64,000 nucleotides of DNA from a virus. The notes below the pieces were generated by a model that had not been told where the DNA came from, searched no databases, and worked only from the letters and a program-made list of their open reading frames with translations. Positions 1 through 54,673 of the stretch are shown here, one piece after another. The position numbers and the translations under genes are program-made. Each line of letters opens with the position of its first letter. Position 1 is the stretch's first letter. The stretch covers positions 1 through 64,000 of IMG/VR virus record IMGVR_UViG_3300006001_000011; one strand, 5' to 3'.

Positions 1-13045
<13,045 letters not shown>

Positions 13046-16000: not shown

Positions 16001-19000
16001 AAGGGTTAAAATTCCGATGGTAAAAACCGGCTTCTTTGCCAAGATGGCGAGTTATCGAAGAGACGTCAAAAACAAAGACAAATCCTCGAGAGGAGTCCAA
16101 AACCCGATTACTTCCTTCTTCGTTTCCGAACCGTGGAGAGTAATGACCGAAAACTTTTTCAGCAAACAGAGATACAAAAAACGCGGAGAAATAGTCAGCA
16201 ACAACTACGACTCTTCGGCAAAAGAGATAAAAGAACTTGCCAAAAATTATATGCTGACCAAAGGCATGAACGAACAAGAAGCGTTGAAAGCGGCAAGGAA
16301 AGAAGTAAATAAATTCTATTTCGGGGACATCGATTCTTCCATAAAGCAAATGCTTACCGCCGCCTCCGTGCACAGGACGAGACACATGTCAGAACCCATA
16401 ATCATGGCCATGTACAATACCTATGAAAATGTATTTGGCTCCAAGAAAGATTTAAAAACGGGACAAACTTCCGTCAATATAGAGAGAACCAAAGGAAAAG
16501 CAAAACTCGACTACTGGATACAAAAACACGTGTATAACATTTCCAATCCGCTTTGGGAAGACGGCATCACTCAACAGGCTCTCGGCACCGACGAGCTTAA
16601 AACTTTAAAAGCCATACAGAAAGCGTATTCGAGAATCGCAGACGTGGACAAGACCACAAATAAAAGAACCCGAAAATTGGTAAGCAAAAGCCATTTGAAA
16701 CGATATACTCAGCAAGAACGGGTAATCGCCAGAGAATACAAGCAAATCGTGGAAAACGGAATTACTCCCGGACAAGAAATGGAGCAAATTCAGGAAATAG
16801 ACGGCAAGGAGTTTTATTTCAAAGTATATAAAGATCCCGTAACCCATCAATTCAAATACAAAACAAACGTCAAAATGCTCAAGGAAAACGGGGTCGGGAT
16901 TCCGGCCATAGATTTTTCGGGAGAATTAAACAAAGAAGTAACCGACATAAACGACTCGCAGGACGTAACGGAAGAACAATTCCATACGGCACTGGGATAC
17001 TTCATAGAATTGAATTTGAACCATATGGGTTCTCCGATAACCATCAGTTCCGCCATGAACGGATTAATGGCTTACTGCATATACAGAGGACTCGCCCTCA
17101 ATCCGATTTCCGGAGCCAAGAACAGAGGAGAAGGGATATTGACGAATACGGCGGCGGACATGTCGGGAGAATACTGGACGCCGGGGAATTACATGCCCGC
17201 CAAAGATTTCATGGGATACTCAAATCTCATGAAAGTGAGAGAAAGATTTATAAACAAAAACAAGCCGTTGTCCAAAAAACGAGAACAGCTTCAAGTGTTT
17301 GAAAAACTGTTGGAACGCTTCGGAGGGCTCCATAAAAAATACGATACCATAGGAAGCGGAGTAGATACCTTCGACGACAAGGTGGCAAACGTTCTTTTTG
17401 ATTTGGCCATTAATCTTCCGGAAAGAAAAAATCAGGGAGAAGTGGTGCTGTGCCTCATGATGGACGAAATGATAGAAGTGCCCGACGGAAAAGGCGGCAC
17501 GACGAAAGTGCCTTTCTTTGACAAAGCGACGCAACAGTTTACTTTGTATCACATCAAAGACGGAGAGCTTAAACTGAAAGACGAATACGAAGGCAAGTTT
17601 GATTTGTACGGAGAGCAAATGAAAAATTTGCGTTTGAGAATGACCAACGTAGTGTCCAGAGTGCAGGGAAATTTTGCCAAACACGACGGATTGAAAGGAA
17701 AAGCGAGCATTTTGGGAAGAATGGGCCTGTTGTTCAAAACCTATTTGCCGGAACACATCAATTCGCGATATTCCGGATTTATGTCCGAGAACGAAAAAAC
17801 GATAAACGTAGATATTAATACAAGGGGGATAAAAAAGAAGGGGAGGTATGCGCAGATGTTGGAAAGCGACCCGATGACGTTTACAAGCCACATGTTGGTC
17901 GGCATAGGATTGTCTTCGGGATGGCTTCATACGGCGATAGCCATGTGCGGATTGGGGAGCGGAATGACGGGAATGGCGGCATACGGAGGAGCGGCGATAA
18001 TTTCTGCCGGCACTATTCCCATGGCCGCGGCGGGAGCGGCAGGAATATACATGCTTTACAAACGCTTCGCGGGAAGAGACAAAATAGTGACGGAAGGTCA
18101 CCAAATGCTGAAATTTATGTATTCTCTGGAACAAATGGTTACTCAGACATGGAATACTTATCCTCGCTTTCTTTCCGGTATTCTGGGAAAAAAGGTTACC
18201 AACGCGATAATGATAGACAGAAGTCTGGTAATGAACAAGGACAGACAACAGCTCATAAAAAACAAGGACGAGATTATGGCCATTAAAGCCTGCACGGCGG
18301 AATTAGCTTCAAAAATAACCATGTTTTTGACCATGATATTGGTGAACGCATTACTGAGACCCGGAGACGACGAAGAGGAAGACACTTTTAAAGCCAGAAT
18401 GTACAATCAGCTTACCAACAATTTGGTTCAGTTCGGAACTATGTCAGATCCCGCCACGTCCATAGTAGGCATTTACGACGACGTATGGGAAAATATGTTG
18501 GTAAAGACAATCGAAGACTCGGTAAAATGCGTAGCCTTTTTTATGGAGGGAGAATTTGAAAAATCGAGAGACAAGCTATTGGCTCTTTCGCCTATTCCGA
18601 AAAGCGTGCACAGTCCTTTTTCCTATGCCGTGGGACCTACTTGGAATTTGGCAGAAATGAGAGGAGAAGGAATAATGGGACAATACGGCTATCTAGGAAA
18701 GACCGCTCAGATATTCCAAGACGAAGGAGAAGGACAGTACAAGAAACTGAATACGAAAAAGAAAAAGGATTATCACGAACAGATGAAAGACAAGTTTGAA
18801 GGACTTACTTTCGACAGCGAATCGGTGAACAGAAGAATAAATATGGCTTACGACGCCAAGTTCTTTATTCAGAGAAAAGGAAAACTGGCGCAGTTGTCGC
18901 ATAAACAAATAAATCGTCTCAACACAATATTCGGAGAGAACCAAGTAAACAAAATAAAAGGATTGTCGGATTCCGAGCTGATTAACACGGAAGGGCTTAA

Positions 19001-19157
19001 AATATTGACGACCATGATAAAAGTCAGACAGTTGCAAGACTTGCCCGAAGACGAAAGGAAACAAGAAGCGAAAAAAATCATAAATAACACGATTCGCATA
19101 TTGAGGATCATGGCAAAGGATTTTCAAAAGAAAGACAGAGAAGAAATTTTTGATTAA
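13047..19157 (+). CDS. Giant (2036 aa) virion/ejected-type protein with an N-terminal PD-(D/E)XK (RecB/Cas4-like) nuclease signature and a C-terminal transmembrane cluster
   Basis: The ATG lies 1 nt after the TAA of the previous ORF. The motifs GTVDIINIDGNGRIEIIDLKTS plus QQSHY (D..D/E-x-K..QxxxY) lie at nt 13887-14012. The hydrophobic Gly/Ala-rich segments LVGIGLSSGWLHTAIAMCGLGSGMTGMAAYGGAAIISAGTIPMAAAGAAGIYML lie at nt about 17874-18066. Confidence 0.75.
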   Translation: MHCLIDSINEKIEKTSGAEKIYGGYRIPVARGRTKAKCDFLADRAADAANKGYEFLPKEEQPAIVDKSYLKEARIRVNANQRLEELHEVKNGKRSLEDWNEKHRGEGANRHYSPHSDPAVHAKAIKDQIGVKALTVNPAKSSEYIDPKTGETFRRVTSLGKEKHIADSGATARGNIVDLTLRDFVTDTNDRSQKNNAAQAIVTPRVMSVKDFETLFRQHVTDVEAKVTAEKGVLPPKFDSAAIKQIYDIFVNFSNQNNYLVSDIPTLWGNVGGETIAGTVDIINIDGNGRIEIIDLKTSVKDRVLDDTINFHESDVSQQSHYAELIRQRTGEIPIGSRILAIQMIEGTKGIITSAICTADKHKMSDARGGAYQVPYNSRILSFPSQGQTQADFDAKIKKIREENGAPLGQNFAELAQWKKEQLEENRRKQFTLKNVKGIEAEQKRALLAKERDILESQARYLFENKEFGQFTVAYLDLKSIQQALESGDQDKILMAGNKLRFYNDIHFSEVIVPKDGTAPQEEIELAKKNKETVDAINAMKTTLTKIFKDKNKEIVLAILEKDGIITDVLKEMNSREDIKRRAGKKEISAGKFEDFTVKDLLTAEGDIDVLSENILGIISSFKGDTVIPQYIYKVFENLLHENQEHPMDLMERMDKFNSEHKMSDQEKEIFFSKDEDGERDGFLINAFSEAWFGMTKAFGEKVRSFKNSFSGANRTARYKIAFDWILNNSEPINFFNLKAVYDEYGKDPKYSQYFSGYNEADAIAYEKKLEGVLGPQLHAIKNNIMATLQNYHSSASELTGTITNQSLASRNIWQFMDNINKKVYDPIDYQRENEHDIMARAIKPAGGLTQEMQNDLLEIKGKIEQYQLERKNNTTGLETPSMSSLKSEIQAKLTKFKGFGMLQEYADSVMDKLEKGQIEYTSAPRKIYFSDFENFPMVPKHDNKDHFSEEFETIKNDENKSELWKLYHEAGEYINNVYGMASSERVKIPMVKTGFFAKMASYRRDVKNKDKSSRGVQNPITSFFVSEPWRVMTENFFSKQRYKKRGEIVSNNYDSSAKEIKELAKNYMLTKGMNEQEALKAARKEVNKFYFGDIDSSIKQMLTAASVHRTRHMSEPIIMAMYNTYENVFGSKKDLKTGQTSVNIERTKGKAKLDYWIQKHVYNISNPLWEDGITQQALGTDELKTLKAIQKAYSRIADVDKTTNKRTRKLVSKSHLKRYTQQERVIAREYKQIVENGITPGQEMEQIQEIDGKEFYFKVYKDPVTHQFKYKTNVKMLKENGVGIPAIDFSGELNKEVTDINDSQDVTEEQFHTALGYFIELNLNHMGSPITISSAMNGLMAYCIYRGLALNPISGAKNRGEGILTNTAADMSGEYWTPGNYMPAKDFMGYSNLMKVRERFINKNKPLSKKREQLQVFEKLLERFGGLHKKYDTIGSGVDTFDDKVANVLFDLAINLPERKNQGEVVLCLMMDEMIEVPDGKGGTTKVPFFDKATQQFTLYHIKDGELKLKDEYEGKFDLYGEQMKNLRLRMTNVVSRVQGNFAKHDGLKGKASILGRMGLLFKTYLPEHINSRYSGFMSENEKTINVDINTRGIKKKGRYAQMLESDPMTFTSHMLVGIGLSSGWLHTAIAMCGLGSGMTGMAAYGGAAIISAGTIPMAAAGAAGIYMLYKRFAGRDKIVTEGHQMLKFMYSLEQMVTQTWNTYPRFLSGILGKKVTNAIMIDRSLVMNKDRQQLIKNKDEIMAIKACTAELASKITMFLTMILVNALLRPGDDEEEDTFKARMYNQLTNNLVQFGTMSDPATSIVGIYDDVWENMLVKTIEDSVKCVAFFMEGEFEKSRDKLLALSPIPKSVHSPFSYAVGPTWNLAEMRGEGIMGQYGYLGKTAQIFQDEGEGQYKKLNTKKKKDYHEQMKDKFEGLTFDSESVNRRINMAYDAKFFIQRKGKLAQLSHKQINRLNTIFGENQVNKIKGLSDSELINTEGLKILTTMIKVRQLQDLPEDERKQEAKKIINNTIRILRIMAKDFQKKDREEIFD

Positions 19158-20125: not shown

Positions 20126-20371
20126 TCAGGTATTGTAAGCGGTGATGTGAATTCCCGCAATACATCCTTCTTCTACGTCTTCGATGTTGTCGGAAGGAAC
20201 TAATTCTCCGTCATAATCTCCTTGCCCCCAAGAACCTTCTTCTTCTCGTTTTTTAAGGCTGTAAATCGCAAAATTATTGACGAGTTTATATCCCGATTCA
20301 CGGGCGGGCACTATTGCCAAAGCGTCCTGCGGACACCTCTTTAAAATGTTTATCAATTCTCCTATGGTCAT
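20126..20371 (-). CDS. Small protein, member 1 of the MT(I/V)xELIxxLKxYPxD paralog family
   Basis: The N-terminus MTIGELINILKRCPQDALAIV is shared with six other small ORFs in the window. Confidence 0.65.
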   Translation of the reverse strand: MTIGELINILKRCPQDALAIVPARESGYKLVNNFAIYSLKKREEEGSWGQGDYDGELVPSDNIEDVEEGCIAGIHITAYNT

Positions 20372-20373
20372 TT

Positions 20374-21096
20374 TTAAAATTGAATTATGGTATAATTTAG
20401 TCCTGCTCCTACTACAGGCGCGAAGCCTGCGGAGCTTATCCCGTAACCTATAAAAACCCCTAATCCGAGACGTCTTTGTTTCGGAACGGCCATTTGGTAA
20501 GAGCGTATTCCTTCAATCTCGGAATAGGGGTTTTTGTCCTTAATCTGGATATATGCAATTTGTCTTTTAAACCATCGATGAGAACCCGGCACGAGGAGAA
20601 CCTCGTACTCGTTCCTCACCTTTACATCGACTTTTACAGAGTCGGCGTTCATCAAGACATTTCCCCGTATCCATTTGTCTAGGTTAAAATCAGATTTATA
20701 TGCGGGGTACACAAAGACGCTGTCCCCTTTTCGGGAGACAGCGTTGGAAACCACAGACACACAATCTCTTCGTATTCGATAAGACGACCTCTGATTAATC
20801 AGAACCGCGCTTCCGCCGTATCTCAATTCGTTCTTGTATTTCTTGACCAATCCTTGAAGTTTTTTGATTTCTTCGTCTTTGGTCTTGAGCGCGATAAACG
20901 ACTTGGCGTTTTCCGTTACGAGCGAGTTCATTCTGTATATAAGCAGAGAGTCAGAGTCTCGTTTGACGAGCATGACGTCTTTCTTTGCTTCGACGGGATT
21001 CTCTTTTCCGCAATTTCGGAAAATGAAGAACACCGCCGCAAGGACAATGAAGAGGGACAAAAGTCCCCAAGAGCGATTTAAAATGTTTCGTATCAT
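20374..21096 (-). CDS. Membrane-anchored protein (N-terminal TM, hydrophobic Gly-rich C-terminus); possible lysis accessory
   Basis: The N-terminus is WGLLSLFIVLAAVFFIF. The C-terminus is LGLGVFIGYGISSAGFAPVVGAGL. It lies near the endolysin. Its function is inferred only from position. Confidence 0.55.
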   Translation of the reverse strand: MIRNILNRSWGLLSLFIVLAAVFFIFRNCGKENPVEAKKDVMLVKRDSDSLLIYRMNSLVTENAKSFIALKTKDEEIKKLQGLVKKYKNELRYGGSAVLINQRSSYRIRRDCVSVVSNAVSRKGDSVFVYPAYKSDFNLDKWIRGNVLMNADSVKVDVKVRNEYEVLLVPGSHRWFKRQIAYIQIKDKNPYSEIEGIRSYQMAVPKQRRLGLGVFIGYGISSAGFAPVVGAGLNYTIIQF

Positions 21097-32853: not shown

Positions 32854-33609
32854 TTAATTTTTCCAGATGTTTTTAATAGGAGGCGCAGGCGTTTCCGTTT
32901 TTTTCTCTTCGGCTTGTTTTTCTACTTCTTTTATCAGTTCCAGTGCGGCTTGGTCTGCTTCCTTGCGCAATGCTTCTTGAACCGGAGGCTCAGAATGAGA
33001 AGCAGCAATCAGAATTTCAGAAACTTTGTCAATTGTCTCTCCTCTCTTCGTTTCTTTCGGAATCCAAGCATGTTTTGCGTCTTTTAAAATGGGAAGCGGA
33101 ACATGCGGTTTCGGAGGAGAAACTTTGTCCTCCGGCAAGAAAGGAAGCTCTTCCGCCATTACGTCGGTCTGACCGGTAATTTCTCCTTCGTCGACGGGAG
33201 TAACGTCGTCTCCGTGTTCGTCGGTCAGTTCAAACTGCATCGGCACATATTCTTCTTTTGTTTCTTCCGTTTTTGCCGTTTCTTCCGACTCTATCAGTTC
33301 AAAGGCGGGCTGTTTCTTGGCTCTCTTGAAACGCAAATGTTTGTTCTCCTTAAAAAATTGATTAAGCGAGGATATTTTTATGCCCATCTTCTCCGCTATC
33401 TGAGGACGGGTAAGACCCTTTTCTATCAGGTCGACTACTTCGCTTTCTTTGATGAGACCCACAAAATTGGGTCTCAGGTTCTTTAGTTTCGGATGTCTGA
33501 AAAGTCTTGCGCAATCTGTTTTGGAAAGCCCGTAATGCTCTCCGATTTCTTTCCTTGTTTTGCCTGTGTTGTTTAAGGCGATGACGTTATTCAATTCTAT
33601 TCGTATCAT
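32854..33609 (-). CDS. DNA-binding protein with two helix-turn-helix modules
   Basis: The repeated HTH-like units are GKTRKEIGEHYGLSKTDCARLF and GLTRPQIAEKMGIKISSLNQFF. An acidic linker follows. Confidence 0.55.
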   Translation of the reverse strand: MIRIELNNVIALNNTGKTRKEIGEHYGLSKTDCARLFRHPKLKNLRPNFVGLIKESEVVDLIEKGLTRPQIAEKMGIKISSLNQFFKENKHLRFKRAKKQPAFELIESEETAKTEETKEEYVPMQFELTDEHGDDVTPVDEGEITGQTDVMAEELPFLPEDKVSPPKPHVPLPILKDAKHAWIPKETKRGETIDKVSEILIAASHSEPPVQEALRKEADQAALELIKEVEKQAEEKKTETPAPPIKNIWKN

Positions 33610-41779: not shown

Positions 41780-41801
41780 TCGCAGGGTTAAAAAGAAAAA
41801 A

Positions 41802-41826
41802 GTTCGGGGGTTTATATGTCCCGAAC
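41802..41826 (-). terminator. Rho-independent terminator (GTTCGGG-loop-CCCGAAC), with a U-run on the minus strand
   Basis: A perfect 7-bp GC-rich stem is flanked by AAAAAA on the plus strand, just after the stop at 41840 and before the polB start. Confidence 0.65.
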
Positions 41827-41839
41827 TCTTTATGTTTGT

Positions 41840-48416: not shown

Positions 48417-48461
48417 TCCTCTTGTTCCCATATTTCTGCAATTTTGTTTAAAATAAAAACA

Positions 48462-48493
48462 AAAGAAAGGAGGCTTGTATTCCCCCTTTCTTT
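48462..48493 (-). terminator. Rho-independent terminator (AAAGAAAGGAGG-loop-CCCCCTTTCTTT)
   Basis: A 12-bp stem with one mismatch lies just after the stop at 48508. The minus strand continues TTGTTTTTATTTT. Confidence 0.6.
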
Positions 48494-48507
48494 CGATAAG
48501 TTGTCAT

Positions 48508-48912
48508 TCATATTTCCCTTTTTGTCTTAAAGGTAGTATAATTCCCGTTTGTTACGGCTTCTAATCCGCATTTGGCGGCTTCTAACGTCATATTTAATAT
48601 CATGGCGTTGAGTTTCATTTCGGCGTTTTCACCTTTTATCTCTGCATCGGAATGACGTGCCTCTGACATCCATTTTCCGTCGTATGAAATATGACCCGCG
48701 TTCCATGTTCCGTCTTCATGCACCGCAATGTTTATCAGTTCTATGCCGTCTCTGAGTTTTAAAGGCACAGAAATAATCTTGTAAGTCTGGTTAGAAGCAT
48801 CATTGAAATACGTGGCAGGAGTAGATGTATTCTCTTTTCTATAAACCCCGTCTAATCTCTCTGCCAAAAGATACAAGGATTGATCTGATGTGTCGTTAAT
48901 TAGCATTTTCAT
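48508..48912 (-). CDS. Hypothetical protein
   Basis: 134 aa ORF flanked by a terminator and a 520-nt gene-free gap. Confidence 0.6.
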   Translation of the reverse strand: MKMLINDTSDQSLYLLAERLDGVYRKENTSTPATYFNDASNQTYKIISVPLKLRDGIELINIAVHEDGTWNAGHISYDGKWMSEARHSDAEIKGENAEMKLNAMILNMTLEAAKCGLEAVTNGNYTTFKTKREI

Positions 48913-49848: not shown

Positions 49849-50064
49849 GTCTGTGTTATTTATGGTTTTCTCTTGTTTTAATTGTACCCTCGCTATTTGT
49901 ATAATGTATCAAATTTTCACTGCTAGTTCGAGTATTTCGTTGTTCTTTTGGTGGTTTTCCTGACCAGTATTTCTCTAATTTCCCTGCTTTTTCTCTTGAT
50001 TTTCCTGCCCATTTAATTCTTATTTCGGAGACCGGTTAATTACGGCTAATCTGTGATGTTAAAA

Positions 50065-50095
50065 AATGGGAAAAAGACGTCTTCTCTTTCCCATT
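50065..50095. terminator. Hairpin AATGGGAAAAAGA-loop-TCTCTTTCCCATT flanked by an A-run and a T-run (bidirectional terminator candidate)
   Basis: Inverted repeat with one mismatch. AAAAAA lies upstream and TTTT lies downstream on the plus strand. Confidence 0.4.
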
Positions 50096-50340
50096 TTAGT
50101 TGTTTTCTCATGATAATGTGCGTAATAGAGACGCGATGAGCTTATCAATTAAAAACGTTCACACAAGGTCTTGCTGTCGGGAGACTATGTATAAGCAGTT
50201 AAACGACAAAAAACTAAAATGACAGACTTGCTTCTCAAACTTAACTAAAACCAATTAAAAAAGTATAAGATGGTGTGGCAAAAGTATTGAATTTGGCGAC
50301 TCGCTCCAAATTTTCTAGGTATTAATTATTCGTGGGAGAG

Positions 50341-50402
50341 GGTCGGGGGAGATTTGGTCACGGGGAGGCAAAGTTGGTCACGGGGAAGATTACGTTACCC
50401 GC
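50341..50402. promoter_or_regulatory. Repeat array A: GGTC(A)CGGGGA x3 plus GTTACCCGC x1 (iteron/operator-like)
   Basis: GGTCGGGGGA is at 50341. GGTCACGGGGA is at 50356 and 50376. GTTACCCGC is at 50394. The same words recur in array B at 51183-51303. Confidence 0.6.
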
Positions 50403-50465
50403 AGTTCCCGCTGTGGTCGAACTTGACTGTAGCGGAGGGGTATTGGCGGCGGGCTGTATTAAAAA

Positions 50466-50510
50466 AACGAAAACGAAAGGAGAGGCTGAAAGCCCCTCCT
50501 TTGTTTCGTT
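50466..50510 (-). terminator. Long hairpin terminator after cassette gene 1
   Basis: The hairpin is AACGAAAACGAAAGGAGAGGC-TGAA-AGCCCCTCCTTTGTTTCGTT. An A-run on the plus strand gives a U-run on the minus transcript. It lies 12 nt after the stop at 50522. Confidence 0.65.
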
Positions 50511-50521
50511 TTTGCGAGCCG

Positions 50522-50953
50522 CTAGAAGATAGAGGCGACGCTGTTGTCGGCAATTTCTTCGCCGGAATACACGATTTCATCGACGTTGTTAGTTTCGATT
50601 TCATCGACTGCATTTACGTTGTCGGTAAAGAGAGTTTGGACAAACACTTCACGACCATTGGTAAGCACAGGTTCGCCGGTAGTGGGGTTAATTTTGCACT
50701 TTTGCCCCTGAAAGAACGGCGTAAAGCGTTGTTTGACAATAATTTTGCCCTTGAGTTGTTGTCCGGCTTTCAAACCGAGACTTTCGAGCAGTTCGGTATT
50801 GCCGTTAATAAACGCTACGCGCCTGCTGACAAAGGAATTTCCGACTCCGAAGCCGACGGATTCGACGCGAATGGAGCTAATGTCCTTGTTCTTGGTCGGA
50901 TTCACGACTTTGCCGGTTTCCGGATGGACTGCGACTTTCACAAAATTTACCAT
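50522..50953 (-). CDS. Cassette gene 1: 143 aa protein with an acidic C-terminal tail ending in Phe (SSB-like tail; function unknown)
   Basis: The ORF is flanked by the promoter-like motif and a terminator. The C-terminus is DEIETNNVDEIVYSGEEIADNSVASIF. Confidence 0.65.
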   Translation of the reverse strand: MVNFVKVAVHPETGKVVNPTKNKDISSIRVESVGFGVGNSFVSRRVAFINGNTELLESLGLKAGQQLKGKIIVKQRFTPFFQGQKCKINPTTGEPVLTNGREVFVQTLFTDNVNAVDEIETNNVDEIVYSGEEIADNSVASIF

Positions 50954-51016
50954 AATTGATAATATTTAAGGTTATAAAAGAAACTAAATGCGAACACACA
51001 ATGCCCGCACCAAAAA

Positions 51017-51043
51017 CAAGTGAGGCTTATGCGTGGGAGAGCA
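51017..51043 (-). promoter_or_regulatory. Conserved cassette motif copy 1 (plus-strand reading CAAGTGAGGCTTATGCGTGGGAGAGCA)
   Basis: It is one of 7 copies of caagtaaagTTTATGCGtnnGAGAgca. It lies 74 nt upstream of the ATG at 50953 on the minus strand. Confidence 0.55.
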
Positions 51044-51182
51044 TCTTTTGCGTAAGAGAGCGGAGTATTTTAAGGAGTCGCCGCCTCCCGGGGAAAGCGG
51101 GAGCGGCAAAATTCAACGGCGAATTTGGCGACTATCTCCCCCTTTCCCGGGGGCCGGAGGTGTAGAGGCGGGGGGGGGCTGT

Positions 51183-51303
51183 GGTCACGGGGAGGCAAGC
51201 GTTACCCGCAGGGGGAGCAAACGTTACCCGCTGTCGTAGACCTTGACCCTGATGACTGTCAAACGTTACCCGCTGTGGTCACGGGGAAGAGAGGGTTACC
51301 CGC
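51183..51303. promoter_or_regulatory. Repeat array B: GGTCACGGGGA x2 and GTTACCCGC x4, followed by AAATACCC(G/T) x3 (to 51365)
   Basis: GGTCACGGGGA is at 51183 and 51277. GTTACCCGC is at 51201, 51223, 51265 and 51295. The 13-mer GAATTTGGCGACT at 51121 also occurs at 50289. Confidence 0.6.
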
Positions 51304-51383
51304 GAGATGCACTCCCTGAAAAATACCCGCAAAAGGATAAATACCCGCAAGGAAAAATACCCTGAAAGAAAAGAGGTAAAAAA

Positions 51384-51406
51384 GGGGAGAGAGCGAAGCT
51401 CTCCCC
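51384..51406 (-). terminator. Terminator with GCGAAGC core after cassette gene 2
   Basis: The hairpin is GGGGAGAGAGC-GAA-GCTCTCCCC, flanked by an A-run and a T-run. Confidence 0.7.
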
Positions 51407-51422
51407 TTTTTGTTTTGCTTGT

Positions 51423-51833
51423 TCACCAGTCTTTCCTGATGGTTTCCAAGTCGTTTTCAATCTCGAGCTTGGCTTTGCGCAACTTGTTAATCTGTGCGAG
51501 ATGCTCTTCATAGGTCATGTCGGCGGGACATTCGCGTTTGATGAGATATTCAATTTCGGCATTGACCTCAGCCAACTGTTGTTCTAAGGCGTCGATTTTA
51601 AGCCCCATATAGTCATCGGAGACAATCATATCCGCCAAATCTTGCGCAACGGCATTCCATTTACGCGCAAACTCATATTTCTCGACAGGACTGTCGACGG
51701 CTTCAAACTTGGCATACAATTCCAATTCTTCGGGAGTATAAGTCCCAAAAAATTGATAATGTTTGCCATTGAACATGTTGTTGTTGCCTTCAATTCCTTG
51801 AACCGAAGGCAACGTTTCGTTTGTATTTTTCAT
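51423..51833 (-). CDS. Cassette gene 2 (136 aa from the ATG at 51833); paralog of cassette gene 3
   Basis: The shared block is QFFGTYTPEELELYAKFEAVDSPVEKY...WNAVAQD...LKIDALEQQLAE. The track start at 51842 is a GTG. Confidence 0.65.
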   Translation of the reverse strand: MKNTNETLPSVQGIEGNNNMFNGKHYQFFGTYTPEELELYAKFEAVDSPVEKYEFARKWNAVAQDLADMIVSDDYMGLKIDALEQQLAEVNAEIEYLIKRECPADMTYEEHLAQINKLRKAKLEIENDLETIRKDW

Positions 51834-51844
51834 ATCAGGCACGA

Positions 51845-51868
51845 TATAGGCTTATGCGTTTGAGAGGA
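51845..51868 (-). promoter_or_regulatory. Conserved cassette motif copy 2 (ATATAGGCTTATGCGTTTGAGAGGA)
   Basis: The core TTATGCG..GAGAG is present. It lies only about 19 nt from the ATG at 51833. Confidence 0.45.
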
Positions 51869-51895
51869 TTAGTATAGATTAAAATAATGAAAAAA

Positions 51896-51919
51896 GGGGG
51901 AAAGGCGAAGCCCTCCCCC
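51896..51919 (-). terminator. Terminator with GCGAAGC core after cassette gene 3
   Basis: The hairpin is GGGGGAAAGGC-GAA-GCCCTCCCCC. AAAAA on the plus side gives the U-run. Confidence 0.65.
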
Positions 51920-51926
51920 AATAGTG

Positions 51927-52190
51927 TCAAATGCCGTACTCGTAGGTAATGACGGCACGCTCGCGTTCAAGCTCAGCAATTTGACACTCCAAAGCGTCAA
52001 TTTTGAGCTGGACGTAGTCCTTGAGCGCAATTTTGTCCCTGTCGTCGGTCGCGACAGCGTTCCAGTCAAATGCCGCGTCGAATTTGTCGACGGGATACTC
52101 GACAGACTCGAATTTGGCGTACAAGGCGAGTTGTTCGGGAGTATAAGTCCCAAAGAACTGACGGTTAGAGGTTGCAATTGCAGTTTTCAT
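51927..52190 (-). CDS. Cassette gene 3 (87 aa), paralog of gene 2
   Basis: It contains QFFGTYTPEQLALYAKFESVEYPVDKF...WNAVATD...LKIDALECQIAE. Confidence 0.65.
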   Translation of the reverse strand: MKTAIATSNRQFFGTYTPEQLALYAKFESVEYPVDKFDAAFDWNAVATDDRDKIALKDYVQLKIDALECQIAELERERAVITYEYGI

Positions 52191-52245
52191 AGTAGTAAAA
52201 ATTTAGAAGTTAAAACGTATGTCGGCAACACACCGACACCCTGTA

Positions 52246-52270
52246 CAAGATAAGTTTATGCGATAGAGCA
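52246..52270 (-). promoter_or_regulatory. Conserved cassette motif copy 3 (CAAGATAAGTTTATGCGATAGAGCA)
   Basis: It lies 66 nt upstream of the ATG at 52190 and 17 nt from the preceding terminator. Confidence 0.55.
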
Positions 52271-52287
52271 TGTTCCGAGATAAAAAA

Positions 52288-52311
52288 GGGAGAAAGGCGA
52301 AGCCTTTCCCC
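52288..52311 (-). terminator. Terminator with GCGAAGC core after cassette gene 4
   Basis: The hairpin is GGGAGAAAGGC-GAA-GCCTTTCCCC, preceded by AAAAAA on the plus strand. Confidence 0.7.
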
Positions 52312-52322
52312 TCTTCCCCAAT

Positions 52323-52619
52323 TCAATCCAGAGCAATCAATGTATCTCTGCCGTTGAACTCGACATGCAACAGAGAACGTCTGCCCTCAATCTCTTCAAC
52401 CATCTGTTCCATGGTGTCGCGACAATCAACCAACTTGTCAATCTCTCCGAGTCTGTTATACTCGTCGGGAGTGAGAAACAAAGAGACCGTCGTGCCGCCT
52501 ATGAGATGGGCAGACATGGACAAATCAGAAACCTCCGCCATACTTCTGACAGAGTCGGGAGCAGAAGCAGGAATGACTTCATACCCGATTTCAAAACCAT
52601 CGACAATTACACTTTTCAT
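52323..52619 (-). CDS. Cassette gene 4 (98 aa from the ATG at 52619)
   Basis: The track ORF extends 16 codons upstream into the leader. The ATG at 52619 sits in the same CATAGTAGTAAAA context as gene 3. Confidence 0.6.
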   Translation of the reverse strand: MKSVIVDGFEIGYEVIPASAPDSVRSMAEVSDLSMSAHLIGGTTVSLFLTPDEYNRLGEIDKLVDCRDTMEQMVEEIEGRRSLLHVEFNGRDTLIALD

Positions 52620-52676
52620 AGTAGTAAAATTTAAAAGATTATAACTTATTGCGGCAACACACCGCAACCAAATACA

Positions 52677-52699
52677 CGCAAGGGTTATGCGTAAGAGAA
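52677..52699 (-). promoter_or_regulatory. Conserved cassette motif copy 4 (CGCAAGGGTTATGCGTAAGAGAA)
   Basis: It lies 66 nt upstream of the ATG at 52619 and 18 nt from the preceding terminator. Confidence 0.55.
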
Positions 52700-52717
52700 T
52701 GTTCCGAGCAAAAAAAA

Positions 52718-52739
52718 GGGGAACAGCGAAGCTGTCCCC
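52718..52739 (-). terminator. Terminator with GCGAAGC core after cassette gene 5
   Basis: The hairpin is GGGGAACAGC-GAA-GCTGTCCCC, preceded by AAAAAAAA on the plus strand. Confidence 0.7.
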
Positions 52740-52758
52740 TTTTCCCTACTACGAAACG

Positions 52759-53202
52759 TCAATTGATGCCGGTGAAATAGCCAATGGTCTTGACAATGGC
52801 AATGATGCCAAATATAATGGCAAACATGAACGCCATATTCTTGCCAAATACAATCCATTGCTCGCCGTTATAGAGCCTTCTGGCTGTCGCCTCCGCAACG
52901 GTAATGCCCATAATGGACGCAGTCGCGGCATCAATAATCTCATGACGCTTCTGGTCATAATTGCGCTCAAGCTCGTCATATGCGCTCTGCTCCGCATGAT
53001 ATATATCATAGAGATACCGCTGTTTGCGATATTGCCTCCAGAGCTGGCGAAGCCTGATGCCCATGTCCAGTCTAGCCAAGAATACCCTCCTCGACTCGTC
53101 GAAGAAGGGAAGCATAGACTGGAACAAATTGCGTAATTGCTCAATCGCCGTTCCTAGAACAACGAGAACCCCATACGCGAGGAATGTGATGAAATGTAAC
53201 AT
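52759..53202 (-). CDS. Cassette gene 5: membrane protein (TM segments at both ends)
   Basis: The N-terminal segment is FITFLAYGVLVVLGTAI. The C-terminal segment is MAFMFAIIFGIIAIV. Confidence 0.65.
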   Translation of the reverse strand: MLHFITFLAYGVLVVLGTAIEQLRNLFQSMLPFFDESRRVFLARLDMGIRLRQLWRQYRKQRYLYDIYHAEQSAYDELERNYDQKRHEIIDAATASIMGITVAEATARRLYNGEQWIVFGKNMAFMFAIIFGIIAIVKTIGYFTGIN

Positions 53203-53243
53203 AATGAATTGGTTTTAGTTGATGGCAATAGCGCCACCATATA

Positions 53244-53270
53244 CAAGTAAAGTTTATGCGTCGGAGAGCA
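53244..53270 (-). promoter_or_regulatory. Conserved cassette motif copy 5 (CAAGTAAAGTTTATGCGTCGGAGAGCA)
   Basis: It lies 52 nt upstream of the ATG at 53202. Confidence 0.55.
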
Positions 53271-53290
53271 TGAGATGAAGAGATAAAAAA

Positions 53291-53311
53291 GAACAGCCTG
53301 AAAGGCTGTTC
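53291..53311 (-). terminator. Terminator after cassette gene 6 (GAACAGCC-TGAAA-GGCTGTTC)
   Basis: A perfect 8-bp stem is preceded by AAAAAA on the plus strand. Confidence 0.7.
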
Positions 53312-53321
53312 TCTTTAGTCG

Positions 53322-53606
53322 TCAGAATGGGAGGCACTGTTCGGCTTCGGCGCGTTGTTCTGCCTCATGCCGTATAGATTCTCTGCGAATATCCAAACGC
53401 ATTAACGCCTGTTCAATTCTGTCATACTCCTGTTCGTGTATGCTGAGTTCCCACTCGATTTCGTCGCGCTCGCACTCTAACGTGATGTTGTCCGTTTCGG
53501 AGTTGTCGATACGGTGTTGCACCTCGATGATGCGAGCTTTGATTGGTGTCATTTCGGCTTGCAATGCAACAAGCGCGAGCATGAGTTTTTCTCTGATGGT
53601 TTCCAT
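53322..53606 (-). CDS. Cassette gene 6 (94 aa, helical/coiled-coil-like)
   Basis: The ORF is bracketed by a motif copy and a terminator. Confidence 0.6.
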   Translation of the reverse strand: METIREKLMLALVALQAEMTPIKARIIEVQHRIDNSETDNITLECERDEIEWELSIHEQEYDRIEQALMRLDIRRESIRHEAEQRAEAEQCLPF

Positions 53607-53648
53607 AACTGTATTTGGTTTTAGTTGTTAATAATGTACTGCCTAGAA

Positions 53649-53675
53649 CAATAAAAGTTTATGCGTTTGAGTACC
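53649..53675 (-). promoter_or_regulatory. Conserved cassette motif copy 6 (CAATAAAAGTTTATGCGTTTGAGTACC)
   Basis: It lies 53 nt upstream of the ATG at 53606. Confidence 0.5.
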
Positions 53676-53695
53676 GCATTAAGAGATAAAAAATA

Positions 53696-53723
53696 GAGAG
53701 CATGGCGCGAAGCCATACCCTCT
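53696..53723 (-). terminator. Terminator with GCGAAGC core after cassette gene 7
   Basis: The hairpin is GAGAG-c-ATGGC-GCGAA-GCCAT-ac-CCTCT, preceded by AAAAAA on the plus strand. Confidence 0.6.
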
Positions 53724-53734
53724 GTTCTGTGCAA

Positions 53735-53953
53735 TCAATATGCGCATTGCTCGTTATACCATGCCTGCCATCTGAGGTTCTCCAACGCCTGCTCTGCATT
53801 GGGAGAGAACTTGATGCGAATGTATTCTTGGTAGGTCAAACCCAAATAGCGTGCCTCTGCCATACCTTCCATATGGTACTGAAAGCGAGACGCATGCGTT
53901 ACATGGCGGAGACCTAAGATTGTGATGAGGATGTTCTGGATGAACTTTTTCAT
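53735..53953 (-). CDS. Cassette gene 7 (72 aa)
   Basis: It is the first gene of the minus-strand block. Its leader (CATAATTGATAATA...) is similar to that of cassette gene 1. Confidence 0.6.
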   Translation of the reverse strand: MKKFIQNILITILGLRHVTHASRFQYHMEGMAEARYLGLTYQEYIRIKFSPNAEQALENLRWQAWYNEQCAY

Positions 53954-54084
53954 AATTGATAATAATTAAATTGTTAATGATACCGTGCCCCTCGCCTGAT
54001 GTACACTTGCAACATTCAACATGTGTTACACATTGAACATCACAACACTACAAACAAGAGAGAGAACCAACACAGTACCAAAAA

Positions 54085-54110
54085 CAAGTAAAGTTTATGC
54101 GTGAGAGAAC
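54085..54110 (-). promoter_or_regulatory. Conserved cassette motif copy 7 (CAAGTAAAGTTTATGCGTGAGAGAAC)
   Basis: It lies 142 nt upstream of the ATG at 53953. The flank ACCAAAAACAAGT is identical to copy 1. Confidence 0.55.
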
Positions 54111-54292
54111 GAGGACTGAGCATGAGAGACCTTCGCCCTTCGTAGAATTTATTCTCGCGGCGGGAAATCGAAGATTTCCTTGACGCCGCGGGGGGATTTC
54201 CCATTTGGGAATCGGGGCGGGGCTTCGTTGAGGAGGTCTCACGCTCTCACTAAACACACAACTCAAAAAATTTTTTCATAAAGAAATTTTAT

Positions 54293-54300
54293 TAACTTTG
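54293..54300 (+). promoter_or_regulatory. Candidate Bacteroidota-type -7 promoter element TAACTTTG (TAnnTTTG) for the plus-strand late block
   Basis: It matches the TAnnTTTG consensus and lies 13 nt before the ATG at 54314. I found no clear -33 TTTG, so support is weak. Confidence 0.3.
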
Positions 54301-54313
54301 ACCTCATAAAAAT

Positions 54314-54673
54314 ATGAAGCCCATTCAACAAATACTGAAACTTTCCACGAAAGAATACTACATGAAACATCTGTCGATAGTCAGTTGCTTACTGCCTACG
54401 CATCTGACGGATAAAGAGATAGAGGTGCTGTCCTTGTTTTTGTATTATAGCGGGGAATTGACGATGAACGACATGTTCAATTCCTTGAGCAGGAAAAGGG
54501 TCAGAGAAATATTAAACATATCGCAGGGGGGATTGGGGAACTACTTGAAATCGATGTTGGATAAGAAAGTGCTGACGCGGAACATATATAATAAATTAGA
54601 GATAAGGCCATACTTGTTGCCTAATTCAGAGAGTCAGGGTTACCAGATAATGATTAAAAGGATAAAAGGATGA
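54314..54673 (+). CDS. Small winged-HTH-like DNA-binding protein candidate
   Basis: It contains LTDKEIEVLSLFLYY...ILNISQGGLGNYLKSMLDKKVLTR. This is an HTH-like pattern only. Confidence 0.5.
   Translation: MKPIQQILKLSTKEYYMKHLSIVSCLLPTHLTDKEIEVLSLFLYYSGELTMNDMFNSLSRKRVREILNISQGGLGNYLKSMLDKKVLTRNIYNKLEIRPYLLPNSESQGYQIMIKRIKG

What the first reader, a model, noticed from the sequence alone, without database searches (positions are those of the whole stretch)
50522..54110. Seven monocistronic units sharing a conserved ~25-nt upstream motif and a family of GCGAAGC-core terminators: candidate phage-RNAP promoter regulon
On the minus strand, each of seven small genes is preceded by TGCTCTCnnACGCATAAACTTTACTTG. 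The plus-strand reading is caagtaaagTTTATGCGtnnGAGAgca, with copies at 51017, 51845, 52246, 52677, 53244, 53649 and 54085. Each gene is followed by a hairpin plus U-run. Five hairpins share the loop core GCGAAGC and the trailing TTTTTTATCTC. The spacing from terminator to motif is nearly constant (17-27 nt). The spacing from motif to ATG varies (19-142 nt). The motif does not resemble the Bacteroidota TAnnTTTG/-33 TTTG promoter. The rest of the 34-kb minus-strand block is one translationally coupled operon with no copy of this motif in its intergenic regions. This is what would be expected of an early-gene set transcribed by the virion RNAP-type enzyme encoded at 2..13045. The cassettes appear to have spread by duplication of whole promoter-leader-terminator modules.
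Basis: partly seen in the sequence, partly recalled or inferred. Interest (0 to 1): 0.7.

Follow-up and report, generated by a model that had tools for sequence, protein, structure and literature searches.

The report
Phage-specific early promoter-terminator gene cassettes
Seven tiny genes at the start of the replication arm of a crAss-like (FpV4-like) phage each sit between a conserved ~30-nt promoter-like motif and a hairpin terminator; related phages carry their own versions of the motif at the same place, which makes it the best available candidate for the unknown promoter of the crAss-type virion RNA polymerase.

Summary
Seven minus-strand copies of TCTCnnACGCATAAnCyTnnnnYGT(n4)GG lie between 51016 and 54108. 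Chance expects 0.02, and there are no other copies in 72.8 kb scanned. Each precedes one small ORFan gene, and each gene ends in a G+C hairpin plus T-run.

The window is an FpV4-like crAss-type phage. Its giant ORF is a homologue of the phi14:2 gp66 virion RNAP.

New here: the motif is the local variant of a clade-wide element. In 50 related loci, 67 of 68 hits to TCAAAACCCtcACTAATTtTTG lie on the replication-arm strand just upstream of TerL, before small ORFs. Cultured phage FpV4 has four copies.

The closest relative (TerL 89% aa) keeps the flanks but has GAAACAA where the window has CGCATAA, in all copies. Its cassette genes are almost all different.

The motif has no Bacteroidota -33/-7 boxes, no N4-type hairpin, and no T7-like RNAP or sigma gene was detected.

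Best reading: phage-specific promoters in PeSL-like promoter-terminator cassettes (about 0.85). That the virion RNAP reads them is an inference (about 0.5). No transcript data exist.

The parts
54084..54108 (-). Motif copy 1 (TCTCTCACGCATAAACTTTACTTGT), 130 nt before the ATG of G1. There is no terminator upstream.
53648..53672 (-). Motif copy 2 (ACTCAAACGCATAAACTTTTATTGT), upstream of G2.
53243..53267 (-). Motif copy 3 (TCTCCGACGCATAAACTTTACTTGT), upstream of G3. A leader hairpin at 53239-53220 starts at the conserved GG.
52674..52698 (-). Motif copy 4 (TCTCTTACGCATAACCCTTGCGTGT), upstream of G4. Leader hairpin at 52668-52648.
52245..52269 (-). Motif copy 5 (GCTCTATCGCATAAACTTATCTTGT), upstream of G5. 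The leader hairpin at 52239-52219 shows two compensatory pair changes relative to copy 4.
51841..51865 (-). Motif copy 6 (TCTCAAACGCATAAGCCTATATCGT), only 7 nt before the ATG of G6.
51016..51040 (-). Motif copy 7 (TCTCCCACGCATAAGCCTCACTTGT), upstream of G7. It is preceded by a partial tandem half-copy at 51045-51062. Leader hairpin at 51011-50987. The same arrangement, including the half-copy, occurs in the orthologous cassette of relative L104.
53735..53953 (-). G1, 72 aa. No Pfam or PHROG family.
53322..53606 (-). G2, 94 aa. No Pfam or PHROG family.
52759..53202 (-). G3, 147 aa, with hydrophobic N- and C-terminal segments. No Pfam or PHROG family.
52323..52619 (-). G4, 98 aa from the ATG. 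Weakly similar (25% aa) to gene e92 of L104.
51927..52190 (-). G5, 87 aa. Paralogue of G6 (63% identity over 67 aa).
51423..51833 (-). G6, 136 aa from the ATG. Paralogue of G5.
50522..50953 (-). G7, 143 aa. The only cassette gene clearly conserved in the sister phage (42% aa to L104 h141).
53695..53723 (-). Terminator after G1: 12-bp stem, loop core GCUUCGC, followed by AUUUUUUAUC.
53286..53316 (-). Terminator after G2: 14-bp stem, loop region CCUUUCAGG, followed by a T-run.
52719..52739 (-). Terminator after G3 (GCUUCGC core, followed by U8).
52289..52311 (-). Terminator after G4 (GCUUCGC core, followed by CUUUUUUAUC).
51897..51919 (-). Terminator after G5 (GCUUCGC core).
51379..51411 (-). 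Terminator after G6 (GCUUCGC core). It is also scored as a terminator on the plus strand.
50476..50502 (-). Terminator after G7. It ends the cassette array, and no motif follows it.
54118..54260 (-). Junction element between the two divergent arms. It is homologous to a block conserved across the whole clade (AGTGAGAgTGTGAgcc ... motif-like C-rich core ... GGGAAnnCCCCCC). In the window the motif-like part (CCCCGCCCCGATT) resembles the clade-type core rather than the window-type core. The region folds as a long imperfect hairpin.
54293..54300 (+). TAACTTTG, an exact Bacteroidota -7 box (TAnnTTTG), 13 nt before the ATG of the first plus-arm gene (54314). This is a host-type promoter facing away from the cassettes.
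2..13045 (+). Giant virion protein ORF (more than 4347 aa; it runs off the left end of the window). It contains a crAss-type two-barrel RNAP module at about aa 1887-3433. The putative catalytic DYDFD lies at aa 3057-3061 (nt 9170-9184).

Best explanation
The seven motif copies are promoters of seven monocistronic early transcription units. A phage-encoded specificity determinant recognises them, most likely the virion-packaged crAss-type RNA polymerase encoded at 2..13045.

Proposed mechanism:
1. After DNA entry, the polymerase binds the asymmetric ~30-bp element. This element has a CTCnnA flank, a genome-specific 7-nt core (CGCATAA), then nCyTnnnnTTGT.
2. Transcription starts at or next to the conserved GG, 4-6 nt downstream.
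3. Many transcripts begin with a 5'-terminal stem-loop, which probably stabilises them.
4. Each unit ends at an intrinsic hairpin plus U-run terminator directly after the stop codon.
5. The strong terminator after G7 separates this set from the replication genes downstream.
6. The composite terminator-promoter-leader segments also act as recombination points. This lets the small ORFan genes between them be exchanged between phages, as with T4 PeSL cassettes.

Shown: the sequence anatomy, its specificity, the conservation of position across the clade, the core switch and the gene turnover.

Inferred: promoter function (about 0.85), the position of the transcription start, early timing, and the identity of the polymerase (about 0.5).
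For: 1. Specificity. There are seven copies, all in the sense orientation and all in intergenic DNA upstream of one small gene each. Chance expects 0.02, and there are no others in 72.8 kb.

2. Need for a promoter. Every unit is bounded by a hairpin plus T-run terminator, so each needs its own promoter. The motif is the only sequence shared by all seven upstream regions.

3. Conservation of position across the clade.
- In 50 non-redundant TerL-anchored loci (712 kb), 67 of 68 hits to the related motif TCAAAACCCtcACTAATTtTTG lie on the strand opposite TerL, 3-10 kb upstream of it.
- These hits sit 45-70 nt before small ORFs and often about 20 nt after T-runs.
- The complete genome of cultured Flavobacterium phage FpV4 has four copies, all at the start of its replication arm.

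4. Concerted core switch. The sister phage L104 (TerL 89% aa, same metagenome) has seven cassettes with the same flanks and the same GG, but with core GAAACAA instead of CGCATAA. The orthologous G7 cassette and its partial half-copy are switched too. This is what is expected if a phage-encoded recogniser co-evolves with its sites, and not if the conserved host sigma-A reads them.

5. Not a host promoter. No copy has a -33 TTTG or a -7 TAnnTTTG. An exact -7 box does sit on the other strand, in front of the first structural-arm gene, in the window, L104, FpV4 and others.

6. Transcription start. Hairpins of differing sequence start 3-6 nt after TTGT in 4 of 7 window cassettes and 5 of 7 L104 cassettes (z from -1.9 to -4.6). 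The G4 and G5 hairpins differ by compensatory changes.

7. Polymerase.
- The giant ORF is homologous to phi14:2 gp66 (BLASTP E 1e-12, three colinear segments, GSDFDIDKMY aligned with GEDYDFDKRY).
- In phi14:2 the replication arm is transcribed early by gp66 and is rifampicin-resistant.
- In crAss001 the early set is a small group of genes at one genome end.
- No sigma factor or T7-like RNAP domain was found in the 20 largest arm proteins or in the two giant ORFs.
Against: - There is no transcript, 5'-end or biochemical evidence for this phage or its clade.
- In phi14:2, the only crAss-type virion RNAP studied, early transcripts had no detectable common upstream motif, and purified gp66 transcribed denatured or single-stranded DNA. 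phi14:2 also has no copy of the clade motif in its first 50 kb. Sequence-specific initiation by this enzyme family is therefore unproven.
- The core switch shows only that the recogniser is phage-encoded. It does not show that the recogniser is the RNAP.
- I could not obtain the virion RNAP of the sister phage to test co-variation.
- About half of the clade-type sites contain TAATTTTTG, and a few contain an exact TAATTTTG. This resembles the host -7 box and leaves room for host RNAP involvement in that type.
- About 25 kb of the genome (the structural arm) was not scanned.
Confidence: 0.5

Rival explanations
1. The motif is a middle-type promoter used by the host RNA polymerase after it has been redirected by a phage-encoded factor. 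That factor could be a divergent sigma or a MotA-like activator that binds the variable 7-nt core. The conserved 3' half (CyTTnnTTGT / TAATTTTTG) would then serve as a degenerate -7 element.
For: - The element is modular. The 5' core switches between sister phages, while the 3' half and the GG stay. This resembles an activator box plus a polymerase-contact element.
- About half of the clade-type sites read TAATTTTTG, and a few read an exact TAnnTTTG.
- phi14:2 gp66 showed no promoter consensus.
- A host-type promoter at the junction could quickly express plus-arm genes, including a 119-aa HTH-like protein.
- The 251-aa ORF at 32854-33609 has weak GerE/HTH matches.
Against: - The window and L104 variants lack a usable -7 box. 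The TA is not conserved, and no copy has TAnnTTTG.
- No sigma domain was detected.
- The putative recognition helix of the junction HTH-like protein (GGLGNYLKSM) is nearly invariant across phages with three different cores, so it cannot set core specificity.
- These are the first genes of the arm that is early and rifampicin-resistant in phi14:2.
Confidence: 0.25
2. The motif is a promoter read by unmodified host RNA polymerase, using either the housekeeping sigma in a non-canonical way or an alternative host sigma.
For: - Most phages use host RNAP for their first genes.
- The T-rich stretch followed by G near the 3' end loosely recalls the Bacteroidota -7 box.
Against: - No -33 or -7 boxes are present.
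- Two sister phages from the same sample use different cores in all copies.
- More distant clade members use a third and a fourth core.
- Canonical -7 boxes are present elsewhere in the same genomes, so these phages do use the normal signal where host RNAP is expected.
Confidence: 0.07
3. The motif is not a promoter. It is either a binding site for a phage regulator (an operator that shuts off or times the early genes) or an RNA-level signal (a processing or stability site) within longer transcripts.
For: - Strict orientation and a genome-specific core fit any phage-encoded sequence-specific protein, or a phage endoribonuclease site.
- Other strand-specific repeats (GCGGGTAAC, CCCCGTGACCA) in the same region show that additional DNA-binding sites probably exist.
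Against: - The element is long, asymmetric and not palindromic, which is unlike dimeric operators.
- Each unit lies downstream of a strong terminator, and no other shared sequence could act as its promoter.
- Copy 1 lies at the very start of the arm, where no upstream transcript exists to be processed.
- No Rfam family matches.
Confidence: 0.1
4. The shared sequences are only remnants of recent tandem duplication of one cassette and have no common function.
For: G5 and G6 are paralogues, and the G4 and G5 leaders are near-duplicates.
Against: - Five of the seven genes are unrelated to each other, while the motif is nearly invariant.
- The same architecture, with a different core, is kept in a sister phage whose genes have almost all been replaced.
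- The architecture also occurs in more than 20 more distant genomes.
- This pattern indicates purifying selection on the element rather than recency.
Confidence: 0.03

Closest known systems
T4-type PeSL cassettes (promoter-early stem-loop; composite terminator/promoter motifs; PMC2839356, PMC4122927)
   Same: - Short composite terminator-plus-early-promoter segments are repeated between small, mostly ORFan genes in a variable region.
- Closely related phages keep the cassettes but differ in the genes between them. This is the signature attributed to PeSL-mediated modular shuffling.
   Different: - PeSL promoters are sigma-70 early promoters read by host RNAP. Here the promoter-like part has no host consensus and carries a genome-specific core.
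- The phage lineage (crAss-like podovirus-type) and the host phylum differ.
- Recombination at these cassettes is inferred from one genome pair only.
Early transcription by the crAss-like virion RNAP (phi14:2 gp66; bioRxiv 10.1101/2020.03.07.982082)
   Same: - The genome layout is the same: a replication arm divergent from the structural arm, and a giant virion protein with a DxDxD two-barrel RNAP module.
- The cassettes sit at the start of the arm that is early and rifampicin-resistant in phi14:2.
- Long non-coding stretches lie near the arm's start in both phages.
   Different: - phi14:2 early transcripts showed no common upstream motif, and its genome lacks the clade motif.
- Here the RNAP module is embedded in a single protein of more than 4300 aa, as in FpV4 gp32.
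Promoters of other phage virion RNAPs (N4 vRNAP hairpin promoters, PMC4496689; P23-45 gp96 AT-rich pre-early promoters, bioRxiv 10.1101/2022.12.01.518664)
   Same: - A small set of strongly conserved, phage-specific promoter sequences lies in front of the first genes expressed by a polymerase delivered with the DNA.
- In P23-45, relatives that encode the virion RNAP share the motif and relatives without it lack the motif. This is the same kind of comparative argument used here.
   Different: - N4 promoters require a 5-7-bp hairpin on the template strand. The motif here has no conserved inverted repeat.
- The N4 enzyme is T7-like, not two-barrel.
- The P23-45 motif is AT-rich and unrelated in sequence.
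T7/T3/SP6-type single-subunit RNAP promoters
   Same: - A conserved asymmetric sequence of about 23-30 bp ends just before a G-rich start.
- A few central positions differ between related phages and set specificity.
- The transcribed units end at hairpin terminators.
- The clade-type core shares 12 consecutive bases (AACCCTCACTAA) with the T3 promoter. The T3 sequence is from my own knowledge.
   Different: - No T7-like RNAP gene was detected. No ORF of suitable size exists outside the two giant ORFs, and there is no Pfam match.
- The window variant does not share the T3-like core.

Membership tests
Rho-independent (intrinsic) terminators | A G+C-rich hairpin followed immediately by a U-run, placed after the stop codon on the sense strand. 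| tested here: met
   All seven genes have one: stems of 9-14 bp with 5-7 G-C pairs, and T-runs of 5-8. The same holds in L104.
Bacteroidota housekeeping-sigma promoters | A -7 box TAnnTTTG with a -33 TTTG about 19-21 nt upstream. | tested here: not met
   None of the seven copies contains TAnnTTTG, and the TA is not conserved. An exact box lies on the opposite strand at 54293-54300.
N4-type virion RNAP promoters | A conserved inverted repeat that forms a 5-7-bp, 3-nt-loop hairpin on the template strand. | tested here: not met
   Template-strand DNA folds of the seven motifs give -0.3 to -4.2 kcal/mol. Only copy 4 forms a weak stem, and no hairpin is shared.
N4-type virion RNAP promoters | A cognate T7-like virion RNAP. 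| tested here: not met
   The giant ORF aligns with the two-barrel gp66 of phi14:2, not with a T7-like enzyme. There is no Pfam RNAP match.
T7-like single-subunit RNAP promoters | A T7-like RNAP gene in the same genome. | tested here: not met
   There is no ORF of 800 aa or more other than the two giant ORFs. There is no RNA_pol domain in those or in the 20 largest arm proteins. About 25 kb of the genome was not examined.
T7-like single-subunit RNAP promoters | A conserved asymmetric sequence of about 23 bp directly upstream of the start site. | tested here: inconclusive
   A conserved asymmetric element of about 30 bp is present, but the start site is only inferred from the leader hairpins.
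crAss-type virion-RNAP early transcription units | The genome encodes a virion-type two-barrel RNAP with a DxDxD catalytic motif. | tested here: met
   BLASTP against phi14:2 gp66 gives E 1e-12, with DFDID aligned to DYDFD.
crAss-type virion-RNAP early transcription units | The units lie at the start of the replication (early) arm. | tested here: met
   These are the first seven genes after the divergent junction, upstream of the DNA polymerase, helicase, primase-like and exonuclease genes.
crAss-type virion-RNAP early transcription units | Rifampicin-resistant transcription immediately after infection. | not testable with these tools
   This needs an infection experiment. No host or isolate is known for this phage. 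FpV4 is a cultured relative that carries the clade-type motif.
PeSL-like mobile regulatory cassettes | A composite terminator stem-loop plus early promoter, repeated between small genes. | tested here: met
   Five of the seven copies lie 18-31 nt after a terminator stem. The promoter function itself is inferred.
PeSL-like mobile regulatory cassettes | Gene replacements between close relatives have their breakpoints at the cassettes. | tested here: inconclusive
   Between the window and L104, only G7 and weakly G4 are shared, and nucleotide similarity is confined to terminators, motifs and leaders. This rests on one genome pair, and exact breakpoints were not mapped.
PeSL-like mobile regulatory cassettes | The promoter part is a host sigma-70-type early promoter. 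| tested here: not met
   No host-type consensus is present.

The most novel reading that the evidence does not exclude
The motif family is the long-missing promoter of the crAss-type single-polypeptide two-barrel virion RNA polymerase. It has a modular layout in which a 7-nt core sets specificity. That core has switched in concert at least three times within one clade (ACCCtcAC / GAAACAA / CGCATAA, and possibly AGACAACCCC). Sister phages in the same habitat would then run mutually insulated early programmes. The same terminator-promoter cassettes would also drive exchange of early ORFan genes.
Probability: 0.4. Interest if true: 0.85.

Novelty: new variant of a known kind. Interest (0 to 1): 0.68.

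Why it matters
- crAss-like phages are among the most abundant phages known. All of them carry a giant virion RNA polymerase related to cellular two-barrel enzymes and to RNAi polymerases.
- How that enzyme finds its start sites is unknown. The one system studied (phi14:2) gave no promoter consensus, and the purified enzyme worked only on single-stranded DNA.
- A clade with a sharp, orientation-specific, position-conserved ~30-nt element in front of its first genes makes the question testable. The clade includes natural specificity variants and a cultured member, FpV4 on Flavobacterium psychrophilum.
- If the enzyme turns out not to be the virion RNAP, the element still defines a new phage-specific promoter class in Bacteroidota phages.
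- It would also extend the PeSL idea (regulatory cassettes as gene-shuffling points) beyond T4-like phages.

Tried and rejected
- blastn (distant mode) of 50300-54400 against GenBank phages found no match.
- An exact scan of IMG/VR with the degenerate window motif gave 15 loci with one hit each and no multi-copy locus, so these were treated as chance.
- The window-type PWM on 47 TerL relatives found nothing. This led to de novo repeat finding, which revealed the clade-type motif.
- Pfam and PHROGs on the seven cassette proteins plus two neighbours gave no families.
- phmmer of both giant ORFs against PDB sequences gave no hit. Homology to gp66 appeared only in a direct pairwise BLASTP.
- I tried to get the sister phage's virion RNAP to test co-variation with the core switch. 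The protein search was saturated by word candidates and returned only two distant hits. The IMG/VR locus search returned none.
- The metagenome TerL scan gave no relative closer than the one already known.
- The junction HTH-like 119-aa protein was considered as the recogniser of the variable core and rejected, because its putative recognition helix is invariant across motif types.
- An N4-like hairpin promoter was rejected.
- Sigma-54 and ECF layouts were inspected by eye and do not fit. GGAAC occurs upstream of only two copies, at the wrong spacing.
- Rfam gave no match above noise.
- The AAAACTAAA repeats in phi14:2 are A-rich translation-start contexts, not a promoter motif.
- Literature searches found no paper describing these motifs or any promoter for a crAss-type virion RNAP. 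Two searches were badly framed and uninformative. The final Nature version of the phi14:2 paper is not held.

Full report
**Observation**

On the minus strand between 51016 and 54108 there are seven copies of a conserved asymmetric element. The degenerate pattern TCTCNNNCGCATAANCYTNNNNYGT hits exactly these seven sites at up to 2 mismatches, against 0.02 expected from shuffles. A 46-nt PWM built from them finds nothing else above 12 bits in the 64-kb window on either strand. It also finds nothing in a further 8.8 kb of the same contig. The invariant columns are CTC, CGCATAA, C, T, GT and a G of the downstream GG. The element therefore spans about 32 nt: tCTCnnA-CGCATAA-nCyTnnnnTTGT-nnnn-GG.

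Each copy precedes one small ORF of 72-147 aa. All seven are without Pfam or PHROG families. Each ORF is followed within 6-20 nt of its stop codon by a G+C hairpin and T-run, and five share the loop GCUUCGC.

- The constant terminator-to-motif spacing holds for five cassettes only.
- TTTTTTATCTC is exact in three terminators.
- A partial tandem half-copy precedes copy 7.
- The remaining minus arm is not a single seamless operon.

**Context**

The window is a crAss-like phage genome. On the plus strand it carries terminase, portal and two giant ORFs. On the minus strand it carries DNA polymerase, helicase, Toprim/primase-like, UDG and exonuclease genes. The two arms diverge at 54110-54313.

The source is a contig of about 98-101 kb seen in three datasets. 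The nearest deposited phages are the Flavobacterium psychrophilum phages of the FpV4 group (TerL 54% aa). They share the architecture, including a 4287-aa virion protein.

The window's giant ORF has no PDB or Pfam hit by sequence search. In direct comparison it aligns in three colinear segments with the phi14:2 virion RNAP gp66 (E 1e-12). The catalytic GSDFDIDKMY of gp66 lies opposite GEDYDFDKRY. So the phage does encode a crAss-type virion RNAP module.

**The motif is a local variant of a clade-wide element**

The window-type motif is absent from 47 IMG/VR relatives. De novo repeat finding showed that those relatives each carry 2-6 copies of another motif, consensus TcAAaACCCtcACTAATTtTTGg.

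- In 50 non-redundant TerL-anchored loci (712 kb, both strands), 67 of 68 PWM hits lie upstream of TerL on the opposite strand, that is, in the sense of the replication arm.
- They lie typically 45-70 nt before small ORFs and about 20 nt after T-runs.
- The complete genome of cultured phage FpV4 has four copies (variant ACTTAT), all at the start of its replication arm.
- phi14:2 has none. This agrees with the published statement that its early transcripts lack a common upstream motif.
- The window-type and clade-type elements have the same length from CTC to TTG (23 nt). They share the flanks (TC..A ... TTG) and differ in the centre.
- One higher-GC relative (L044) has a further type, ccAGACAACCCCatcttg, in five copies.

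**The sister phage**

A contig from the same metagenome (L104) carries a 70%-identical homologue of the junction gene. It very probably belongs to the phage whose TerL is 89% identical. It has seven cassettes with the same layout: terminator, motif, leader, small gene.

- Its motif keeps the flanks and the GG (…A-GAAACAA-nCCTTtnTTnT-tcTt-GG) but has GAAACAA where the window has CGCATAA, in every copy.
- The orthologous cassette in front of the one well-conserved gene (G7, 42% aa) is recognisably the same in both phages. It has the same leader hairpin (GGTGCGGGCA…) and the same partial tandem half-copy, and both the full and the half copy carry the genome's own core.
- The cassette genes are otherwise almost entirely different. 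Nucleotide similarity between the two regions is confined to terminators, motifs and leaders.

This gives two conclusions. First, the regulatory segments are under selection independently of the genes they flank. Second, the core has changed in concert within each genome, which is the behaviour of sites that co-evolve with a genome-encoded recogniser.

**What it is not**

- No copy has the Bacteroidota -7 box TAnnTTTG or a -33 TTTG. An exact -7 box does sit on the other strand 13 nt before the first plus-arm gene (54293-54300), and likewise in L104, FpV4 and others. These phages therefore use the host signal where host RNAP is expected.
- The motif has no conserved inverted repeat on the template strand, so it is not an N4-type hairpin promoter.
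- No T7-like RNAP or sigma domain was detected in the giant ORFs or in the 20 largest arm proteins.
- The 119-aa HTH-like protein encoded at the junction has an almost invariant putative recognition helix across phages with three different cores. It cannot be what reads the core.
- Rfam gives nothing.

**Likely start site**

In 4 of 7 window cassettes and 5 of 7 L104 cassettes, a hairpin of cassette-specific sequence begins 3-6 nt after TTGT, at the conserved GG. The G4 and G5 hairpins differ by two compensatory pair changes (TTGCGG/CCGCAA against TGTCGG/CCGACA).

A structure conserved in position but not in sequence, right after a conserved G-start, is what a 5'-terminal stabilising stem-loop looks like. 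I therefore place the start at or next to the GG. This is an inference.

**Mechanism and rivals**

Each unit lies behind a strong terminator and shares only this element with the others, so the element is very probably the promoter (about 0.85).

The recogniser is phage-encoded, because of the core switch and the lack of a host consensus. The virion RNAP is the most economical candidate (about 0.5):
- It is present at time zero.
- Its homologue transcribes the equivalent arm in phi14:2 in the presence of rifampicin.
- In crAss001 the early class is a small gene set at one genome end.

The main rival (about 0.25) is host RNAP redirected by a phage factor, which would make these promoters middle-class. 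The modular behaviour of the motif and the -7-like TAATTTTTG in many clade-type sites fit this reading. The lack of any -7 box in the window and L104 types argues against it.

Three further readings are less likely: host RNAP alone, an operator or RNA-processing site, and functionless duplication remnants.

**Comparison with known systems and novelty**

In architecture and evolutionary behaviour the closest known thing is the T4-type PeSL. PeSLs are composite terminator/early-promoter cassettes that flank ORFan genes and mediate modular shuffling. They differ because they use host sigma-70 promoters.

In logic, the closest are promoters of injected phage polymerases (N4; P23-45 gp96), but the sequences and enzymes are unrelated.

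I found no paper describing this motif family or any promoter for a crAss-type virion RNAP. I rate it a new variant of a known kind, namely phage-specific promoter-terminator cassettes. The higher-value possibility is that it defines promoter recognition for an enzyme family where none is known.

**Limits**

- There are no expression data.
- The polymerase is not identified.
- Co-variation with the RNAP could not be tested.
- About 25 kb of the genome was not scanned.
- The recombination role rests on one genome pair.

Noticed in passing
window 51364-51180 and 50410-50350 (minus strand): There are two further strand-specific repeat families in the long non-coding stretches after G6 and G7. GCGGGTA[AT][CT] occurs 7 times (51348, 51330, 51303, 51273, 51231, 51209, 50402). 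CCCCGTGACCA occurs 4 times (51286, 51192, 50385, 50365). They could be iterons of an origin or binding sites for a regulator. The sister phage L104 has a comparable repeat, GGGGAAACAAnnGTGTGTGTC, placed between the terminator and motif of nearly every cassette (L104 about 8600-5440).
   Followed up: partly
window 50476-49849, especially 50097-50062 (minus strand): The 630-nt non-coding stretch after the G7 terminator contains a strong hairpin plus T-run (AAAATGGGAAAGAGAAGACGTCTTTTTCCCATTTTTT, -18 kcal/mol). This suggests a small non-coding transcript. It recalls the two long intergenic regions near the start of the phi14:2 early arm that are transcribed more highly than most genes.
   Followed up: partly
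window 54118-54260; L104 9960-9830; FpV4 about 330-450; many IMG/VR loci: The divergent junction carries a non-coding block of about 150 nt that is conserved across the whole clade: A/T tract, AGTGAGAgTGTGAgcc, a motif copy, GGGAAnnCCCCCC, ...CAGCCATGAATAA. In the window its motif-like part (CCCCGCCCCGATT) looks like a decayed clade-type core rather than the window-type core. The region folds into a long imperfect hairpin (-53 kcal/mol over 150 nt). It could be the first early promoter with its leader, or a terminus, packaging or origin site.
   Followed up: partly
clade-type motif, e.g. L026 5000, L041 4435-4990, FpV4 83708: The clade-type core contains AACCCTCACTAA, which is 12 consecutive bases identical to the phage T3 RNAP promoter (AATTAACCCTCACTAAAGGGAGA, from my own knowledge). 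No T7-like RNAP gene was detected in the window. This is probably coincidence but is unexplained.
   Followed up: partly
window 49082-48935 (minus strand) and L104 4832-4687: A 149-nt non-coding segment upstream of the gene at 48912 is 71% identical between the window and the sister phage, although the flanking DNA is not alignable. It is a candidate promoter or regulatory region for the downstream replication operon.
   Followed up: no
window 50001-54000: The cassette region has GC 0.46 and AT skew near 0. The rest of the minus arm has GC 0.37-0.45 and AT skew of -0.21 to -0.34. This fits a region of high gene turnover or a different selective regime.
   Followed up: no
window 41780-41839 and 48460-48495 (minus strand): Terminator-like hairpins with T-runs sit directly in front of the DNA polymerase gene (GTTCGGG...CCCGAAC TTTTTT, 14 nt before the ATG) and in front of the gene at 48431. 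Transcription of the replication genes may therefore need read-through or antitermination.
   Followed up: no
window 20365-20458 (minus strand): ARAGORN calls a 94-nt tRNA-Arg (anticodon TCG). It overlaps the 3' end of the 240-aa ORF at 20374-21096. It was not checked further.
   Followed up: no
window 13047-19157 (plus strand): The 2036-aa ORF after the giant RNAP-containing ORF has a PD-(D/E)XK nuclease domain match just above the Pfam threshold (aa 170-403, 24 bits against a cut-off of 22).
   Followed up: no
window 32854-33609 (minus strand): A 251-aa replication-arm protein has weak, sub-threshold HTH matches (GerE/LuxR-type, HTH_23) at aa 54-85. It is a possible transcription factor or sigma-region-4-like protein.
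   Followed up: no
L056 1-9571 (IMGVR_UViG_3300021508_000002): This relative lacks the clade motif. Instead it has about 30 copies of TAATGAATTA(G) in the region upstream of TerL.
   Followed up: no
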